Below are positions 20,203 through 63,088 of a DNA stretch of 64,000 bases, one piece after another (within the stretch, counting starts at the first letter, position 1; every line of letters begins with the position of its first letter). The translations under genes and the position numbers were made by a program. The notes below the pieces were generated by a model. The model was not told where the DNA came from, did no database searches, and saw nothing but the letters and a program-made list of their open reading frames with translations. The DNA lies in the IMG/VR virus record IMGVR_UViG_3300021256_000061; one strand, written 5' to 3'. Source of the DNA: a virus. Its lineage: Duplodnaviria > Heunggongvirae > Uroviricota > Caudoviricetes.

Positions 20203-21321
20203 ATGCGTCTTGACGAGGTGGCATATTCTCCAGACATCGTATGGATTACATACGGTTGGGACCACTTTGACCCGTCCAAGTTCGAGAGGGCGCGGGTTGG
20301 GGACGAGAGGTATGACTACACGAACAAGCCTTGCGGGGGCCTATGGGCGTGTCCTGTGAACAGCGAGTGGGGCTGGAGCCATTGGTGTCGTACGGAGGAC
20401 TTCAGGGCAGACTCTCTCAAGAAGTCGTTTTGTTTCAGGTTAAAACCGAAGGCCAAGATATATGTCATCGACAATGCCGAGGACCTGGGGAAGATATCGT
20501 TGCATGTAAGCGGTCAATATACCAGCAGGTTGGTTTTCAACATTGATTATGGGCGACTGATAGAGAGTGGGTATGACGGGATTTACCTGACGGATAACGG
20601 TCTGTTCTCTTGCCGTGAGGGTGTGGACATTGAGGGGAATAAATTTGTCCCGCACGCGAACTGGGCCACGATACCGTTAATCCAGGGGATGAGCAGCTGG
20701 GACGTCGAATCTATTTGTGTCTTTAACCCTGACGTAATTATTCCGATAGAGAAGGAAGCGGAACCGCAGGGTATGAAAAGTATCACAATCAGCGAATCCG
20801 ATATAAGGACGATGGTTAGGAAAATCATACGGGAGATTAGTGAAGGCCAGTTCAATGTCAGGGGTGTATATCATGTTTCGGGCAATGCCTTTGATGAATT
20901 TAAGGAGGGGAACTTCCCTTGTTTCTTTTTTTCCAACAAGCCCATACGAATAAACGGCAGCAAGTATACATATCTTTGCAATCTATCTTTGCATAATCCT
21001 GTTAAGTTCAGCTGTCAAATGTCTTGGAGTTATTCTTTATGGCTATATCTTTCGGACAGTGACGGGCGCCTGATACCCGAGGAGGAATTTACCAGAGAGA
21101 AATATGACGGGTATTTGGGATGTCCTTATGAATTCTGGGAAAGAGTTTATTATGATGATTTCGCATACTCTGTTGACGATGCGCCTGGTTTGTTAAAAAG
21201 TTTGAACCTGGGTTATGACGGCATGATTATAAAGGGTGTGTCCGAAGGTGACACTGGAATTGACGTGGATGACTATGTTGTCTTTGATGCTGGCCAGATA
21301 CAAATTGTAAGGAGATATTAA
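20203..21321 (+). CDS. motif-family protein (372 aa) with C-terminal domain shared with 28506..29043
   Basis: Contains the 22-aa motif ITISESDIRTMVRKIIREISEG and a GVYHVSGNAFDEF...GCPYEFWERVYYDD domain paralogous to the 28.5-kb gene. Confidence 0.55.
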   Translation: MRLDEVAYSPDIVWITYGWDHFDPSKFERARVGDERYDYTNKPCGGLWACPVNSEWGWSHWCRTEDFRADSLKKSFCFRLKPKAKIYVIDNAEDLGKISLHVSGQYTSRLVFNIDYGRLIESGYDGIYLTDNGLFSCREGVDIEGNKFVPHANWATIPLIQGMSSWDVESICVFNPDVIIPIEKEAEPQGMKSITISESDIRTMVRKIIREISEGQFNVRGVYHVSGNAFDEFKEGNFPCFFFSNKPIRINGSKYTYLCNLSLHNPVKFSCQMSWSYSLWLYLSDSDGRLIPEEEFTREKYDGYLGCPYEFWERVYYDDFAYSVDDAPGLLKSLNLGYDGMIIKGVSEGDTGIDVDDYVVFDAGQIQIVRRY

Positions 21322-21353
21322 ATTCTGTTATTTACAGATTTTTCTTCCTGTTG

Positions 21354-21366
21354 GACTATTTATAAA
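21354..21366 (+). promoter_or_regulatory. conserved upstream motif GACTATTTATAAA (class-2 promoter-like element), representative of 9 copies
   Basis: AACTATTTAT(A/T) found 18-60 nt upstream of ATGs at 21385, 27593, 29091, 30437, 36262, 37958, 41900, 49577, 60932. Confidence 0.45.
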
Positions 21367-21384
21367 TTGAACACCGATAAGAAT

Positions 21385-21975
21385 ATGAAAAAGAATACAA
21401 TAAAGATTAATGAAAACACCCTCAGGCAGATTGTTGCTGAGAGCGTGAAGAGGGTATTAAACGAAAGAAGGGGCAGAAATCCGTATGGCTATATGGACTT
21501 TGACCAGGACGCCTATGATAAGTGGGAAAACGAAACACATATACCTCAAGAGGTCATGGAAATGGTGAATCATGTGGCCGAGAAAATCGGTATGGGGTCC
21601 GTGGAGGAAACCGTCGTACATTTGACTAACAGGTGGGGCGAGACAATTGGTTATGGAAAAGGTATCAGCTTAACGCATTGTACGAGCTCGTATGCTGATG
21701 GACCATCCACCGACTATTCGTCCGTATTTGCAAAATGGTGTAAGGGCTTGGGTTTTGAAGAATGTGACTCCCACGGCGATAACGGTATGGATTCTGCGAC
21801 AAACTGGCACGACACCTATTGGACTCACGAATTTGTCTATGAGGGCACCGAAATTTATAATGACGACCTCGAACATTTCGTCCCTTATGATGAGAATGAC
21901 GAAGACGCTTATGCTGAATATTTGGATTATGAGGATGAAAGCATGTATGACGATGACGATGATTACGGATATTAA
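21385..21975 (+). CDS. motif-family protein with acidic C-terminus (196 aa from ATG; ORF track uses TTG 21367)
   Basis: N-terminal IKINENTLRQIVAESVKRVLNE motif; C-terminal DDDDDYGY. Confidence 0.5.
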   Translation: MKKNTIKINENTLRQIVAESVKRVLNERRGRNPYGYMDFDQDAYDKWENETHIPQEVMEMVNHVAEKIGMGSVEETVVHLTNRWGETIGYGKGISLTHCTSSYADGPSTDYSSVFAKWCKGLGFEECDSHGDNGMDSATNWHDTYWTHEFVYEGTEIYNDDLEHFVPYDENDEDAYAEYLDYEDESMYDDDDDYGY

Positions 21976-22002
21976 TAAGGAAACCAAATAAATAATGAAA
22001 TG

Positions 22003-22028
22003 GGCCGCTAAAAACAGCGGCCTTTTTC
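22003..22028 (+). terminator. rho-independent terminator
   Basis: ggccgct aaaaac agcggcc + T5. Confidence 0.6.
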
Positions 22029-60688: not shown

Positions 60689-60931
60689 GTTTCAGAAAAC
60701 GTTTTTTTGGTTAAACTTTATTGTTGCCTGCTGTTTGTTTTCTTCAGAAGGTTTTGCAAAGATATATACTTTTTTTTATAATACAAATTTTTTTGAACTT
60801 TTTTTTAAAAAATCGTCTGAGCGTTCTATTCTACATTCTCATCTTATATCTTTATTTACTACAAAAATCATACCAAAACGTTTATTTCTTTTTTATTGTT
60901 AATAGACTATTTATAAGAAAAGTATAAACTA

Positions 60932-61660
60932 ATGTCAAAGATATATTTAACAGAAGGACAAATAAACGCAGCAATTTATAAAGCCATTAACGAAGCTTTT
61001 GGTGTTGGAAAGGATAGCCAGTTCATTTCTGATGATGTAGATGCGGACGACGAGGTACGTGACCATTGGGCGGAGGCTGAGGATGCCTATCTTATGCGTG
61101 AGAGACTCCCTAAGGGCTGGGAGAAGATTGAGAGGCCAGACGACTCGCCAATTTATAGGGACCCCGACTTTAATGAGTACACTAAGGATGAATATGGCAA
61201 CTTCGTCCCAATAGAAAGTGATGTAGATATGGACGAAATGAATATGCTCAGGGAATCAATCCGTGGGGCTGTTCGTCAGGTAATCAATGAAATCGACATG
61301 TCTCAATTTGGTTTCAATCCTGGATGGGGCGCTTCTGATATGTTTGAAAAAGCCAAAGCAGGTAGTAAGAAATCAAAGGAGAGCAAGGGTGAGAAAGCTG
61401 ATGAACGTGTCCACAAGGGTGACATGAAAAAACGCGCATCAAAAAGAGCGATTGTGCTCAAATGGTTGAAGAAAAATGCAGTTAATAATGCAGAGATTAT
61501 GCGCCTTTTGTGGCATCCTACGCCAGATAAAGAAGATACCAAGCGCGGAGAATTTTACAAGAAGCGTGATGGTAAGATTAACAAAGATAGTGGCGCACAA
61601 TATTCTTTTAATGATGCCGAAATCAATAAACTTTACGCCATTAAATCAAACGGGGTTTAA
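60932..61660 (+). CDS. motif-family protein (242 aa)
   Basis: N-terminal IYLTEGQINAAIYKAINEAFG; GACTATTTATA upstream at 60905-60915. Confidence 0.5.
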   Translation: MSKIYLTEGQINAAIYKAINEAFGVGKDSQFISDDVDADDEVRDHWAEAEDAYLMRERLPKGWEKIERPDDSPIYRDPDFNEYTKDEYGNFVPIESDVDMDEMNMLRESIRGAVRQVINEIDMSQFGFNPGWGASDMFEKAKAGSKKSKESKGEKADERVHKGDMKKRASKRAIVLKWLKKNAVNNAEIMRLLWHPTPDKEDTKRGEFYKKRDGKINKDSGAQYSFNDAEINKLYAIKSNGV

Positions 61661-61662
61661 TA

Positions 61663-62142
61663 ATGAAGATGAAGATAACTGAGGAAGATATAAGATATAT
61701 GGTCTCTGAGGCAGTTAAAAAAGTTCTTAACGAAAGTATCAATGAACTGTCTCCTGAATTCATGGGCCATGCGGCAGATGTTGCAAATTCTAAGGGTAGG
61801 TTTAATCAAAGAGATGTTTTTAACGATTACTCAAGAGAGGTTGCAACATCAGAGTTTTCTGGGGATGGCGTGATTGGTGCAAGTCACAATAGCATTAACT
61901 ACGTAAATGGAGACCATATTTGCGTTATTTGTGCCGACGGAACCTATGGCACGCGTGGTTCTAATTATTTTAAACCAGTGACTAATGAACATGGATATCT
62001 TAAAGGCTGCAGTAATTTGCCTGAGGTACTAAAAACAAATAATAAATCCCTTGCTAGAAAACTGGCAAATTGGTGGAATAGATTCGGGCAGGCTGAAACT
62101 GGCTTGAATCTCTCCGATTATCATACATATTGTATATTGTAA
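61663..62142 (+). CDS. motif-family protein (159 aa)
   Basis: N-terminal KITEEDIRYMVSEAVKKVLNESINE. Confidence 0.5.
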   Translation: MKMKITEEDIRYMVSEAVKKVLNESINELSPEFMGHAADVANSKGRFNQRDVFNDYSREVATSEFSGDGVIGASHNSINYVNGDHICVICADGTYGTRGSNYFKPVTNEHGYLKGCSNLPEVLKTNNKSLARKLANWWNRFGQAETGLNLSDYHTYCIL

Positions 62143-62143
62143 A

Positions 62144-63088
62144 ATGAAACGAGTTATTAAATTAAGTGAAGGCCAAATTCGTGAGGCAATAAAAAACGTT
62201 ATCGAGAATCTTTCTGAGGGTGGCCATCTTTATGGTGAACTACCTAATGGTGATATTTTTACTAATTCTAAAGATACCTTCCACGGTGTTCCTGGAAGTA
62301 CTGTCGTGTCACATGGTGAATGTGCGGACCCCGAGTTGTTCTATAAGGGCAAGAAGGTCGATTTTGAAGCGGTGGAGAAAAGACTTTACGATGATTATTA
62401 TGAAGAAGCGTCGGAGTTTGATAATGTTACCTTTGAGGAATGGCTTGAAACCAAGGATATGGAGTATTTGGAAAGTATTTTGAAGGAACATATTATTTCG
62501 GGCGAAGCTTTAAATGAAAGTACCTTTGGCGAGACGCCACGGGACAAGTGCATGAGACTCGCAATGCAGGCCCGCGAAGATTTGACTCCTGAGCAGAGAA
62601 CTGAATTCTTCGACATGCTTAAGGATGTTTTTGAAACAGACGATATGGGACTCGTACGTTCTATGTTTGCTAAAATTTGTCAGGGGACCTTTGAAGATGA
62701 GGCTGTAATTGAGAACCTTATTCCTAAATTAGAAGGATTTATTGAAAGGGTTTACGGCCCAGAAGAAGAACCAGGGTCGGATGATGATAATGATATTGCT
62801 GGGATAGATTCCGACGATGATATCGATTTCTCTGATATGGGGGCATTCCCCGATGGAGAATTGGATGAGGTTCATGGGCATAAAAAACATAATGCCCCTA
62901 AGGATTATATTGCAGCAGTGAATAAAGGAAACCGCGAAGGTGAAATGGAAAAGATGGGTGGTGGTTTCAGGCAAAGAAATAAAATTCACAAAGCGAAAAA
63001 CGATTACCCAGGTAAAAAAGTCAATATATCTAATTATGATGACTTGATTGATGAGTGCGTGAAACGCGTTTTAGACAAAATGTTTTAA
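62144..63088 (+). CDS. motif-family protein with acidic region (314 aa)
   Basis: N-terminal IKLSEGQIREAIKNVIENLSEGG. Confidence 0.5.
   Translation: MKRVIKLSEGQIREAIKNVIENLSEGGHLYGELPNGDIFTNSKDTFHGVPGSTVVSHGECADPELFYKGKKVDFEAVEKRLYDDYYEEASEFDNVTFEEWLETKDMEYLESILKEHIISGEALNESTFGETPRDKCMRLAMQAREDLTPEQRTEFFDMLKDVFETDDMGLVRSMFAKICQGTFEDEAVIENLIPKLEGFIERVYGPEEEPGSDDDNDIAGIDSDDDIDFSDMGAFPDGELDEVHGHKKHNAPKDYIAAVNKGNREGEMEKMGGGFRQRNKIHKAKNDYPGKKVNISNYDDLIDECVKRVLDKMF

What the first reader, a model, noticed from the sequence alone, without database searches (positions are those of the whole stretch)
20203..63088. Family of at least 10 paralogous proteins sharing a 22-aa helical motif I-x-L-(S/T)-E-x-(Q/D)-(L/I)-R-x-(I/M)-V-x-E-(S/A)-V-(K/R)-(K/R)-V-L-x-E
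Motif instances: 20203 gene (ITISESDIRTMVRKIIREISEG), 21385 (IKINENTLRQIVAESVKRVLNE), 27593 (IRLNESQLRCIVAESVRRALKE), 28506 (VIITESQLNAIVSTNM), 29091 (twice), 30437 (C-terminal), 49577, 60932, 61663, 62144 (N-terminal). Several also share larger domains (20203 C-terminal domain = 28506..29043). The motif sits at the N-terminus, internally or at the C-terminus, so it behaves like a portable module. Ideas: a capsid-targeting or docking helix for internal or ejected virion proteins (the I-x-L-S/T-E core resembles T4-type prohead-protease L/I-x-E cleavage sites), or a shared binding helix for a common partner. I do not recognise it as a named domain.
Basis: seen in the sequence. Interest (0 to 1): 0.65.

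Follow-up and report, generated by a model that had tools for sequence, protein, structure and literature searches.

The report
Shared late-gene helix tag in jumbo phage
Eleven otherwise unrelated genes of an uncultivated rumen jumbo phage carry the same ~23-residue helix, which is phage-specific, undescribed and most likely addresses cargo proteins into the assembling phage head, as the capsid-targeting sequence of phage T4 does.

Summary
The motif is real, at every listed position, only in real + strand genes. Six genes hold seven strong copies; five hold divergent or half copies. The proteins are not paralogues: outside the motif only 20203 C-terminus and 28506-29043 are related.

It is a portable module. 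A profile finds 3,097 protein clusters in metagenomes, with copies N-terminal, internal, C-terminal or repeated. It is almost absent from 596 Gb of cellular genomes, and absent from PDB sequences, Pfam and NCBIfam.

Best reading (confidence 0.5): a head-targeting, protease-cut tag for packaged and injected proteins of T4-like jumbo phages of gut Bacteroidota. The support is circumstantial:
- Three conserved [L/I/V]-x-E triplets match the T4 gp21 cleavage rule.
- In relatives, motif genes and homologues of window genes flank or overlap the gp21-type protease gene.
- The scaffold-position protein carries a weakly similar helix.
- Fused domains are polyvalent-protein types (ART-PolyVal, InPase).
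- Every motif gene has, directly or through its operon, a CTATTTAT promoter-like element (49577 has only a variant) that also precedes capsid, terminase and fibre-like genes.

Not shown: virion presence, cleavage, or a protease in this phage's own genome.

The parts
20203..21321 (+). Two-domain protein with the motif as inter-domain helix (motif nt 20782-20847, ITISESDIRTMVRKIIREISEG). The N-domain is aa 1-185. The C-domain is an ART-PolyVal-like ADP-ribosyltransferase fold.
21385..21975 (+). 196-aa protein with the canonical N-terminal leader MKKNTIKINENTLRQIVAESVKRVLNE (motif nt 21400-21465).
   Evidence: 51.8 bits with the external profile. The leader is 74-85% identical to leaders in L055, L140 and L141, while the rest of the protein is unrelated to them.
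27593..28501 (+). 302-aa protein with an internal motif (nt 28175-28240) preceded by Met (ESMKNTIRLNESQL...). It looks like a fusion of an N-domain with a leader-first small protein.
   Evidence: 45.3 bits. Stand-alone leader-first homologues of the C-terminal part are P0029, P0056 and P0067.
28506..29043 (+). Frameshifted gene with a shortened N-terminal motif VIITESQLNAIVSTNM (nt 28518-28565) followed by an ART-PolyVal-like domain paralogous to the 20203 C-terminus. The frame breaks in an A8 run at about 28613-28620.
   Evidence: Pfam PF18760 scores E 0.0013, below threshold. The same A8 run is present in the 100% identical public contig L149.
29091..29837 (+). 248-aa protein with two motif copies (nt 29106-29171 and 29559-29624).
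   Evidence: The C-terminal half is 70% identical to a remnant in a Bacteroidota chromosome next to IS elements (L001). The AF2 model is too poor to use, at pLDDT 47.6.
30437..30976 (+). 179-aa protein with the motif at the extreme C-terminus (nt 30905-30970).
   Evidence: Homologues keep the C-terminal motif (L148, L150-L153). In L145 (35% identity, E 3e-25) and L153 the homologue's gene overlaps the start of the PF03420 prohead-protease gene.
49577..50527 (+). 316-aa protein with a divergent N-terminal motif IQITENDIYKMVRGVLKELHYG (nt 49586-49651). It is the last gene after the two giant fibre-like genes.
   Evidence: 28 bits with a profile that includes window sequences. The external profile does not detect it. 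Upstream there is only a variant element, ACTATATTAT.
60932..61660 (+). 242-aa protein with a divergent N-terminal motif IYLTEGQINAAIYKAINEAFG (nt 60941-61006). It is the first gene of a three-gene motif operon.
   Evidence: C-terminal region aa 169-235 is 55% identical over 67 aa to a stretch in RUG12352 locus L141.
61663..62142 (+). 159-aa protein with N-terminal motif MKITEEDIRYMVSEAVKKVLNE (nt 61669-61734).
   Evidence: Its second half, MVSEAVKKVLNES, closely resembles the scaffold-position protein of L137, LLSEAVKKALRES.
62144..63088 (+). 314-aa protein with an N-terminal motif variant IKLSEGQIREAIKNVIENLSEG (nt 62156-62221) and a C-terminal half-motif LIDECVKRVLDK (nt 63044-63079).
   Evidence: Residues 240-307 are 47% identical to the 148-aa protein encoded immediately upstream of the prohead protease in L055.
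20176..20183 (+). Promoter-like element CTATTTAT, 19 nt before the 20203 start. Identical elements lie at 21356-21363, 27570-27577, 29068-29075, 30411-30418 and 60907-60914, before the other motif genes or operons.
   Evidence: The window has 10 exact matches against 3.66 expected, and 0 of 100 shuffles reach 10. All lie 2-58 nt upstream of a gene in the right orientation.
36238..36245 (+). The same CTATTTAT element before the large fibre-like or structural-like genes. This one precedes 36262; others are at 37920-37927 (before 37958) and 41842-41849 (before the 41900-50527 operon).
   Evidence: In the relative L137 the element precedes the gp23-type capsid gene, the terminase and a gp13-like gene. 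The strand bias is 27:2 in jumbo-clade head modules and 128:8 in 74 more distant T4-like head loci.

Best explanation
The motif has the consensus (M-K-K-N)-x-I-K-L-[N/T/S]-E-S-Q-L-R-x-I-V-[A/K]-E-S-V-K-K-V-L-K-E. I read it as a portable address tag and cut site for late proteins that are built into the prohead of a clade of T4-like jumbo phages of rumen and gut Bacteroidota.

Proposed mechanism:
1. The tagged proteins are made late, from the same promoter type as the structural genes.
2. Their amphipathic helix docks onto the scaffolding core. The scaffold-position protein carries a similar helix near its N-terminus.
3. The gp21-family prohead protease then cuts at one or more of the three [L/I/V]-x-E triplets in the tag.
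4. This removes N- or C-terminal tags, separates the domains of multi-domain precursors, and leaves free cargo in the head. The cargo includes an ADP-ribosyltransferase-fold enzyme and many small proteins, and it would be ejected with the DNA.

Shown here: the motif itself, its portability, its phage restriction, its gene neighbourhoods in relatives, the shared promoter-like element, and the fold of one cargo domain.

Inferred: docking to the scaffold, cleavage, presence in virions, ejection, and that this phage itself encodes the protease.
For: Real and specific motif.
- It is significant in the window.
- A 23-position profile finds 3,097 cluster representatives at E<=1e-3 among 1.84 billion.
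- In the top 149 proteins there are 120 N-terminal, 155 internal and 36 C-terminal copies.
- About 0.54 Mb of unrelated viral loci give no hit, and 0.85 Mb of distant T4-like loci give only five marginal hits of 15-18 bits.
- The IVAESVKKVL DNA pattern hits 5 stretches in 596 Gb of cellular genomes. Three of them lie on one 286.6-kb rumen contig that shares genes with the window.
- No PDB sequence matches; the best E is 0.32.

Portable tag.
- The same leader precedes dozens of unrelated tails.
- It flanks separately mobile domains in every order.
- AF2 places it as an isolated helix of lower confidence after a disordered linker.

Protease logic.
- The most conserved positions are E6 (297/311), E15 (257/311) and E23 (252/311). 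Each has L/I/V at -2.
- T4 gp21 cuts Alt at ITE-6 and LTE-619, and it removes 10-20-residue targeting propeptides (PMC5694885).
- The T4 sequences read FLTE65|A in gp23 and MAKINELLRE|S in gp24.
- Capsid proteins of the jumbo clade have L-[N/S/K]-E|A just before the conserved core.

Neighbourhood in relatives.
- In L055 four motif genes bracket the PF03420 protease, between conserved head genes and a gp23-type capsid gene.
- Homologues of window 30437 overlap the protease gene in L145 and L153.
- Homologues of 62144, and of a motif gene just past the window end, are the two genes upstream of the L055 protease.

Scaffold similarity. The scaffold-position proteins of four clade members carry ...LLSEAVKKALRES... 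near the N-terminus. hhalign against the motif gives P 4.8e-4.

Co-regulation. The CTATTTAT element precedes every motif gene or operon in the window (49577 has only a variant). It also precedes the fibre-like genes here, and the capsid, terminase and neck genes in relatives.

Cargo type.
- The 20203 and 28506 domain is ART-PolyVal-like.
- A motif protein carries InPase.
- Both domains were defined in polyvalent proteins predicted to be packaged and injected, with the T4 ART Alt as the prototype (PMC5512222).

Precedent. T4 internal proteins are diverse anti-defence proteins that share only a capsid-targeting sequence (PMC3012670).
Against: - There are no proteomic or biochemical data. Virion presence and cleavage are untested.
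- The window and 15 kb of flanks hold no protease, portal or capsid gene, and I could not find the head module of this phage. Its T4-like nature rests on shared accessory genes and the shared promoter-like element.
- In related jumbo phages L135 and L136 no motif lies within 10 kb of the protease, and L137 has only two weak copies. The protease linkage is therefore not universal.
- The tag is two to three times longer than the T4 targeting sequence and shows no sequence similarity to it. Internal, C-terminal and repeated positions are unusual for a simple N-terminal targeting peptide.
- The similarity to the scaffold helix is weak (hhalign probability 32%).
- Three [LIV]-x-E triplets can arise in any amphipathic helix rich in Glu.
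- CTATTTAT is called a promoter on position and strand bias alone, and its timing is inferred from the genes it precedes.
- At least 15 tagged genes in about 75 kb implies a very large number of cargo species.
Confidence: 0.5

Rival explanations
1. A docking helix for a common partner other than the prohead core. The partner could be another virion site such as the capsid exterior, neck or baseplate, a phage chaperone (the window encodes a full DnaJ at 35070-36173), or a host hub protein. In this reading there is no proteolytic processing.
For: The element is an amphipathic helix that stands apart from the folded domains. It is conserved at protein level. Late-type co-regulation with structural genes fits any virion-associated role. 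Some clade members have no motif near the protease.
Against: This reading does not explain several observations:
- why the three Glu residues with aliphatic P3 are the best conserved positions;
- why the motif genes bracket the protease gene in L055, L145 and L153;
- why the scaffold-position protein shares the helix.

Enzymatic cargo such as ART and pyrophosphatase fits internal, ejected proteins better than surface decoration (PMC5512222).
Confidence: 0.2
2. Mainly a recombination or modular-shuffling cassette. In this reading a conserved gene-start module (5' UTR plus leader) spreads by recombination, promotes fusion and fission of genes, and the peptide has little function of its own.
For: - Canonical MKKN...IVAESVKKVL leaders from different phages and genes share codons in 58% of identical residues, against 36% expected.
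- ATTGTTGCTGAGAGTGT and the upstream aagaatATGaaaaagaat are almost invariant among them.
- Internal copies are often preceded by 'ESKxxxNMKKN', which is the translation of the sequence upstream of N-terminal copies.
- Fusions and fissions occur at the motif.
Against: - Within the window the copies have drifted to the expected synonymous level (0.40 against 0.36) while keeping the residues, which means selection on the peptide.
- C-terminal copies and divergent subtypes (LTESDLHRIVKESVNKIL and others) keep the same residue pattern with different DNA.
- Recombination is compatible with the main explanation, as argued for T4 internal-protein loci, and does not exclude it.
Confidence: 0.12
3. A truncated ribbon-helix-helix or antitoxin-like element (a beta-strand plus the first helix, as in RelB, CopG and Arc) that acts in dimerisation or DNA binding.
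For: The pattern of a strand (xIKL), an N-cap (NES) and a helix resembles the first half of an RHH. Eleven of the 149 top motif proteins give weak hits to PF25734 RelB_like_antitoxin, with profile positions 4-28 on the motif.
Against: - All hits are below the family threshold, at best E 1e-5 and 14-16 bits in the cases inspected, against a cut-off of 27.
- No window protein hits the family even at E<=1.
- Nothing conserved follows the motif where the second RHH helix should be.
- Internal, C-terminal and repeated copies in enzymes do not fit a DNA-binding fold.
Confidence: 0.05

Closest known systems
Capsid-targeting sequence (CTS) of phage T4 internal proteins IPI-III and Alt, removed by prohead protease gp21
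   Same: Both are short conserved peptides shared by otherwise unrelated, fast-evolving proteins of a T4-type phage. The tag ends in, and contains, (L/I)-x-E. The clade has a gp21-family (PF03420) protease. The cargo includes an ADP-ribosyltransferase. T4 Alt is cut at both ends, at ITE-6 and LTE-619 (PMC5694885, PMC3012670).
   Different: There is no sequence similarity to MKTYQEFIAE. The motif is 23-27 residues rather than 10, forms a predicted amphipathic helix, and holds three candidate sites. It also occurs internally, C-terminally and in 2-4 copies per protein. Function is untested.
Long propeptides of ejection and inner-body proteins in phiKZ- and SPN3US-type giant phages
   Same: These are jumbo phages with many head proteins. 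Their propeptides have multiple cleavage sites ending in Glu. Conserved N-termini are shared by diverged paralogues such as gp53 and gp54 (PMC5694885).
   Different: Those phages use an S80 protease with an A/S/G-x-E rule. Their propeptides are over 100 residues long and are not a single portable motif shared by thousands of families.
Polyvalent proteins of phages and conjugative elements (Iyer et al. 2017)
   Same: Unrelated effector domains (ART-PolyVal, InPase) are strung together or dispersed, and are predicted to be packaged and injected with the DNA (PMC5512222).
   Different: Here the domains are mostly small separate proteins or two-domain proteins marked by one conserved helix. No MuF or portal fusion and no embedded peptidase was seen.
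Pfam PF25734 RelB_like_antitoxin
   Same: There is weak profile similarity over 21-25 residues.
   Different: The similarity is below threshold and absent for the window proteins. The second helix of the fold is missing.

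Membership tests
T4-type capsid-targeting sequence / gp21-processed propeptide | The phage encodes a gp21-family (Peptidase_S77, PF03420) prohead protease within a T4-type head module | tested here: inconclusive
   Met in motif-carrying relatives: L055 has protease, scaffold-like gene and gp23-type capsid gene. Loci carrying homologues of window 30437 (L145, L153) also have the protease. Not found in the window or its 15 kb of flanks, and the rest of this genome could not be reached.
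T4-type capsid-targeting sequence / gp21-processed propeptide | The peptide carries the (L/I)-x-E cleavage consensus | tested here: met
   There are three conserved [L/I/V]-x-E triplets at motif positions 4-6, 13-15 and 21-23. All 11 window genes have [I/L]-x-E at positions 4-6; the second copy in 29091 reads L-E-E. T4 sites for comparison come and PMC5694885.
T4-type capsid-targeting sequence / gp21-processed propeptide | Actual cleavage by the prohead protease and removal of the peptide | not testable with these tools
   Needs virion mass spectrometry or an in vitro protease assay.
T4-type capsid-targeting sequence / gp21-processed propeptide | Necessary and sufficient to load a protein into the prohead; carrier proteins present in virions | not testable with these tools
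   Only indirect support is available: a promoter-like element shared with structural genes and positions next to the protease gene in relatives.
T4-type capsid-targeting sequence / gp21-processed propeptide | Sequence homology to the T4 CTS (MKTYQEFIAE) | tested here: not met
   The motif profile gives no positive score on T4 gp21, gp22, gp24 or gp68, and returned no domain for gp23 or gp67, even at E<=1000. [quoted passage not shown] The claim is therefore 'works like', not 'member of'.
Pfam PF25734 RelB_like_antitoxin | Score at or above the curated gathering threshold (27 bits) | tested here: not met
   The best E-value among 149 motif proteins is 1e-5, and the inspected cases score 14-16 bits. 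Window proteins give no hit at E<=1.
ART-PolyVal (PF18760) ADP-ribosyltransferase, for the C-terminal domain of 20203 and for 28506-29043 | Profile match and ART fold | tested here: met

The most novel reading that the evidence does not exclude
The helix is a universal address-and-release tag. It would mark the whole set of proteins that a large, uncultivated clade of T4-like jumbo phages of gut and rumen Bacteroidota loads into the capsid and injects. That would mean dozens of tagged genes per genome and more than 3,000 protein families overall. Multi-copy proteins would be polyproteins cut apart inside the head. Reading the tag would then list the injected effector repertoire of these phages directly from sequence, and would supply a ready-made packaging signal for engineering.
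Probability: 0.35. Interest if true: 0.8.

Novelty: new variant of a known kind. Interest (0 to 1): 0.65.

Why it matters
Injected and internal virion proteins are among a phage's first weapons against host defences, but in uncultivated phages they cannot be recognised from sequence.

If this tag works like the T4 capsid-targeting sequence, a 23-residue profile would pick out thousands of candidate ejected effectors in gut and rumen jumbo phages. These include ADP-ribosyltransferases, pyrophosphatases, nucleases and many small proteins of unknown function. The tag would also show how such phages load and release cargo, and it would offer a packaging signal for cargo delivery.

Even if the mechanism differs, the motif is a large and specific protein module that none of the searched libraries (Pfam, NCBIfam, PHROGs function annotations) or full-text papers describes. 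It is tied to a late-type regulon.

Tried and rejected
Database searches that found nothing useful:
- Pfam, PHROGs and NCBIfam on the window proteins gave no family for the motif, only sub-threshold noise.
- GenBank phages: megablast of 20000-31000, tblastn of 29091, and tblastn of a consensus leader all gave no match.
- Literature strings (IVAESVKK, LTESDLH and others) matched no paper.
- IMG/VR searches with 29091 and 30437 found no relatives, and an exact 40-mer of the window is absent.

Ideas rejected:
- A DNA-level repeat as the explanation for the window copies. Synonymous sites sit at the expected level.
- PF25734 (RHH) membership. All hits are below threshold.

Dead ends:
- Loci found through the helicase were distant marine phages, useful only as negative controls.
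- I tried to locate this phage's own prohead protease through clade proteases P0309, P0354 and P0300. All sit on contigs from other samples.
- AF2 of 29091 with a three-sequence alignment gave pLDDT 47.6 and is unusable.
- tRNA and Rfam scans of the window found nothing.
- P0091, a top profile hit with 11 repeats, is a false positive of another kind.

Full report
**1. Observation**

The window is part of an uncultivated rumen jumbo phage. Its proteins occur identically on ENA ERZ28612970 scaffold_25 (272 kb) and scaffold_1699 (46.5 kb), and on sheep-rumen contigs AUXO01. GenBank phages hold nothing similar.

- A profile from six instances, run on all six frames, hits only real + strand ORFs. 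It finds seven strong copies in 20203, 21385, 27593, 29091 (two copies), 30437 and 61663. It finds weaker or partial copies in 62144, 49577, 28506 and 60932.
- A profile built only from external sequences recovers seven of them, at up to 51.8 bits. Shuffled controls give 0-2 marginal hits.
- The other four are divergent variants. 20203 is validated by homologues with canonical motifs at the same position.

The proteins are not paralogues. BLASTP finds nothing shared outside the motif except the 20203 C-terminus and 28588-29043, at 63% identity. 28506-29043 is a single gene interrupted by a frameshift in an A8 run. The same run is present in an independent public contig.

Within the window, identical residues use the same codon in 40% of cases, against 36% expected. 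The copies are therefore held by selection on the peptide.

**2. What the motif is**

It is a widespread portable module.
- A word-indexed search returned 89 small metagenome proteins. Almost all begin MKKNxVKLNESQLRKIVAESVKKVLKE and then diverge completely.
- An exhaustive profile search of 1.84 billion cluster representatives gave 3,097 hits at E<=1e-3 and 53 at 1e-10.
- The 149 best proteins hold 311 copies: 120 N-terminal, 155 internal and 36 C-terminal, with up to four per protein.
- Among those 149 no Pfam domain passes its threshold in more than one protein. Singletons include InPase (E 1.4e-45) and HNH_3 (sub-threshold, 23.6 vs 24.8 bits).

The motif is specific to phages.
- About 0.54 Mb of unrelated viral loci give no hit, and 0.85 Mb of distant T4-like loci give five marginal ones.
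- The DNA pattern for IVAESVKKVL occurs five times in 596 Gb of bacterial and archaeal genomes. Three of those lie on one 286.6-kb rumen 'MAG' contig that shares genes with the window and is rich in tagged genes.
- No PDB sequence matches. No Pfam or NCBIfam family describes it, and no paper contains its strings.

**3. Anatomy**

The consensus is x-I-[K/R]-L-[N/T/S]-E-S-[Q/D]-L-[R/H]-x-I-[V/I]-[K/A]-E-S-V-K-[K/R]-[V/I]-L-[K/N]-E. In structural terms it is a short strand, an N-cap, then a five-turn amphipathic helix, usually followed by an acidic or glycine-rich stretch.

In 20203 AlphaFold gives two confident domains, a disordered linker (188-196), and the motif as an isolated, less confident helix (198-216).

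Homologues of 20203 show that its two domains move independently, and that the motif sits in different places:
- in front of the first domain in many homologues;
- between that domain and several different second domains in others;
- in front of the ART domain alone in one homologue (P0366), as in the window's own 28506.

27593 is likewise an N-domain fused to a leader-first small protein that exists on its own elsewhere. The motif therefore marks the ends of modules.

**4. Links to head assembly**

(a) Related motif-carrying phages have a T4-type head module.
- In IMG/VR contig 3300021426_000068 (locus L055) four motif genes bracket a PF03420 (gp21-family) prohead protease gene. Two with C-terminal motifs lie in the positions of T4 genes 67 and 68. 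Two with N-terminal leaders lie just downstream.
- These four are followed by a 269-aa protein with a leader variant, an acidic scaffold-like protein and a gp23-type capsid gene.
- The clade is large. It holds 2,570 protease relatives, on contigs up to 367 kb, with gp23, T4 portal and gp13-like neighbours.

(b) Window genes have homologues in exactly these positions.
- The 30437 family overlaps the start of the protease gene in L145 (35% identity, E 3e-25) and in L153, and always keeps its C-terminal motif.
- Residues 240-307 of 62144 match the protein directly upstream of the L055 protease.
- A motif gene just past the window's end matches the next protein upstream.

(c) The motif's best conserved positions are three Glu residues, each with L/I/V two residues before.
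- T4 gp21 cuts after Glu in (L/I)-x-E. Examples are ITE-6 and LTE-619 in Alt (PMC5694885), FLTE65 in gp23 and LRE10 in gp24.
- The clade's capsid proteins have L-[N/S/K]-E-A just before their conserved core. That this is their maturation site is my inference.

(d) The scaffold-position proteins of four clade members carry ...SLNxLLSEAVKKALRES... near the N-terminus. This resembles the second half of the motif, and especially window 61663. The profile-profile P value is 4.8e-4, which is weak. Other conserved head-module proteins begin with leader variants such as MKKLILTRSQL... and MSKQTVQITPQQLEEIVSESVKRILKK.

(e) Co-regulation.
- The octamer CTATTTAT occurs 10 times in the window against 3.7 expected, and no shuffle reaches 10.
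- Every copy lies 2-58 nt upstream of a gene in the right orientation. Six precede motif genes or operons, three precede the large fibre-like genes, and one precedes the HTH gene beside the TnpB element.
- None precedes the helicase, the methylase or the roughly 49 long minus-strand genes.
- In the relative L137 it precedes the capsid, terminase and gp13-like genes.
- It is strongly strand-biased: 27:2 in jumbo-clade head modules and 128:8 in 74 more distant T4-like head loci. T4 itself uses TATAAATA.
- The tagged genes therefore appear to belong to the structural, probably late, regulon. This also ties the window's phage to that phage group.

(f) Cargo.
- The C-terminal domain of 20203, and 28506, has an ADP-ribosyltransferase fold of the ART-PolyVal type.
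- Another motif protein carries InPase.
- Both domains were defined in polyvalent proteins predicted to be packaged and injected, with the T4 ART Alt as the prototype (PMC5512222).
- T4 internal proteins are described as diverse defence-countering proteins that share only a targeting sequence (PMC3012670).

**5. Mechanism proposed**

Late-made tagged proteins dock through the helix onto the scaffolding core. The gp21-type protease then cuts at the L-x-E triplets. This removes terminal tags, separates fused modules, and leaves cargo in the head for ejection with the DNA.

Steps shown: motif, portability, phage restriction, neighbourhoods, shared promoter-like element, ART fold.

Steps inferred: docking, cleavage, virion location, ejection, and the presence of the protease in this genome.

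I give this reading 0.5.

**6. Counter-evidence and rivals**

The protease linkage is not universal. L135 and L136 have no motif within 10 kb of the protease, and L137 has only weak copies. The head module of this phage was not found. The tag is unlike the T4 sequence in both length and residues.

Rivals:
- A docking helix for another partner, without cleavage (0.2).
- Chiefly a recombination cassette (0.12). Canonical leaders from different phages share 58% of codons and a conserved 5' UTR. Against this, the window copies show peptide-level selection, and recombination is compatible with the main model.
- A truncated RHH or antitoxin-like element (0.05). PF25734 hits are all below threshold and the second helix is missing.

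**7. Comparison and novelty**

Functionally the closest thing is the T4 capsid-targeting sequence and gp21 processing. Next come the long propeptides of phiKZ- and SPN3US-type ejection proteins, and the polyvalent-protein strategy.

It is not a sequence member of any of these. No searched library (Pfam, NCBIfam, annotated PHROGs), solved structure or searched paper describes the motif.

I rate it a new variant of a known kind, with interest 0.65. The motif and its regulon are solid, and the mechanism is plausible and directly testable. If confirmed, it would expose the injected proteome of a large group of uncultivated gut phages.

Noticed in passing
window 28506-29043 (A8 run at about 28613-28620): The ART-PolyVal-like gene is split by a +1 base in a poly-A tract. 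An A7 run would give an intact 179-aa protein, as in homologue P0361. The identical A8 run is in public contig AUXO017935422.1. It could be a sequencing error, a pseudogene or slippage.
   Followed up: partly
window 20176, 21356, 27405(-), 27570, 29068, 30411, 36238, 37920, 41842, 60907; also L055, L056, L135, L137, L145 and L061-L134: CTATTTAT(A/T) is a strongly strand-biased promoter-like element upstream of structural genes. It occurs in this jumbo clade and in many more distant T4-like phages with gp21-type proteases (128 sense copies against 8 antisense). T4 itself uses TATAAATA. It is probably the late promoter of this phage group.
   Followed up: partly
L140, L141, L055, L049, L046, L045 and window 21385: leader DNA: Canonical leaders in different phages and different genes share near-invariant DNA, namely aagaatATGaaaaagaat ... 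ATTGTTGCTGAGAGTGT. Codon identity is 0.58 against 0.36 expected. This suggests recent spread of the gene-start cassette by recombination.
   Followed up: partly
window 25790-27402 (- strand): An IS200/IS605-type TnpB-like gene (415 aa) with an adjacent MerR- or excisionase-like HTH gene sits in the middle of the motif-gene cluster. The HTH gene has its own CTATTTAT element 2 nt before the annotated ATG, so its true start is probably Met21.
   Followed up: no
window 35070-36173 (-): The phage encodes a full-length DnaJ (J domain, CXXCXGXG zinc domain and C-terminal domain). A sigma-70-type factor lies nearby at 32903-33799.
   Followed up: no
window 41900-45778 and 45994-49542: These are two giant paralogous repeat proteins (38-42% identity; phrog_25468, with a YadA-head-like repeat). 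They are probably fibres or adhesins. 37958-39892 carries a Fibrobacter succinogenes major domain.
   Followed up: no
L055 10001-11827 (same gene as L047 1392-3218): The gp21-type prohead protease of this IMG/VR phage is interrupted by a sequence of about 368 aa that looks like an intein, inserted at the conserved GE|CNHP site. I removed it by eye; homologues without it are 236-241 aa.
   Followed up: partly
L001 about 10001-10293 (Bacteroidota chromosome contig with SusD, RHS and IS elements): A frameshifted remnant 70% identical to the C-terminal half of window 29091, including its motif, lies between IS1595 and IS66 elements in a bacterial chromosome. It hints at the host phylum or at past gene transfer.
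   Followed up: no
L083 3325-3732, L088 931-1191, L117 and L118 2154-2537: Small genes 6-8 kb from the protease in distant, non-jumbo T4-like phages start with weak motif relatives (MNKISKLRELIAESVREVLAE; MRITESQLRKAV). The tag may therefore be older than the jumbo clade.
   Followed up: no
window 11898-12440 and 12587-12958 (-): Two neighbouring small genes share a 65-residue segment at 66% identity. This is a local duplication unrelated to the motif.
   Followed up: no
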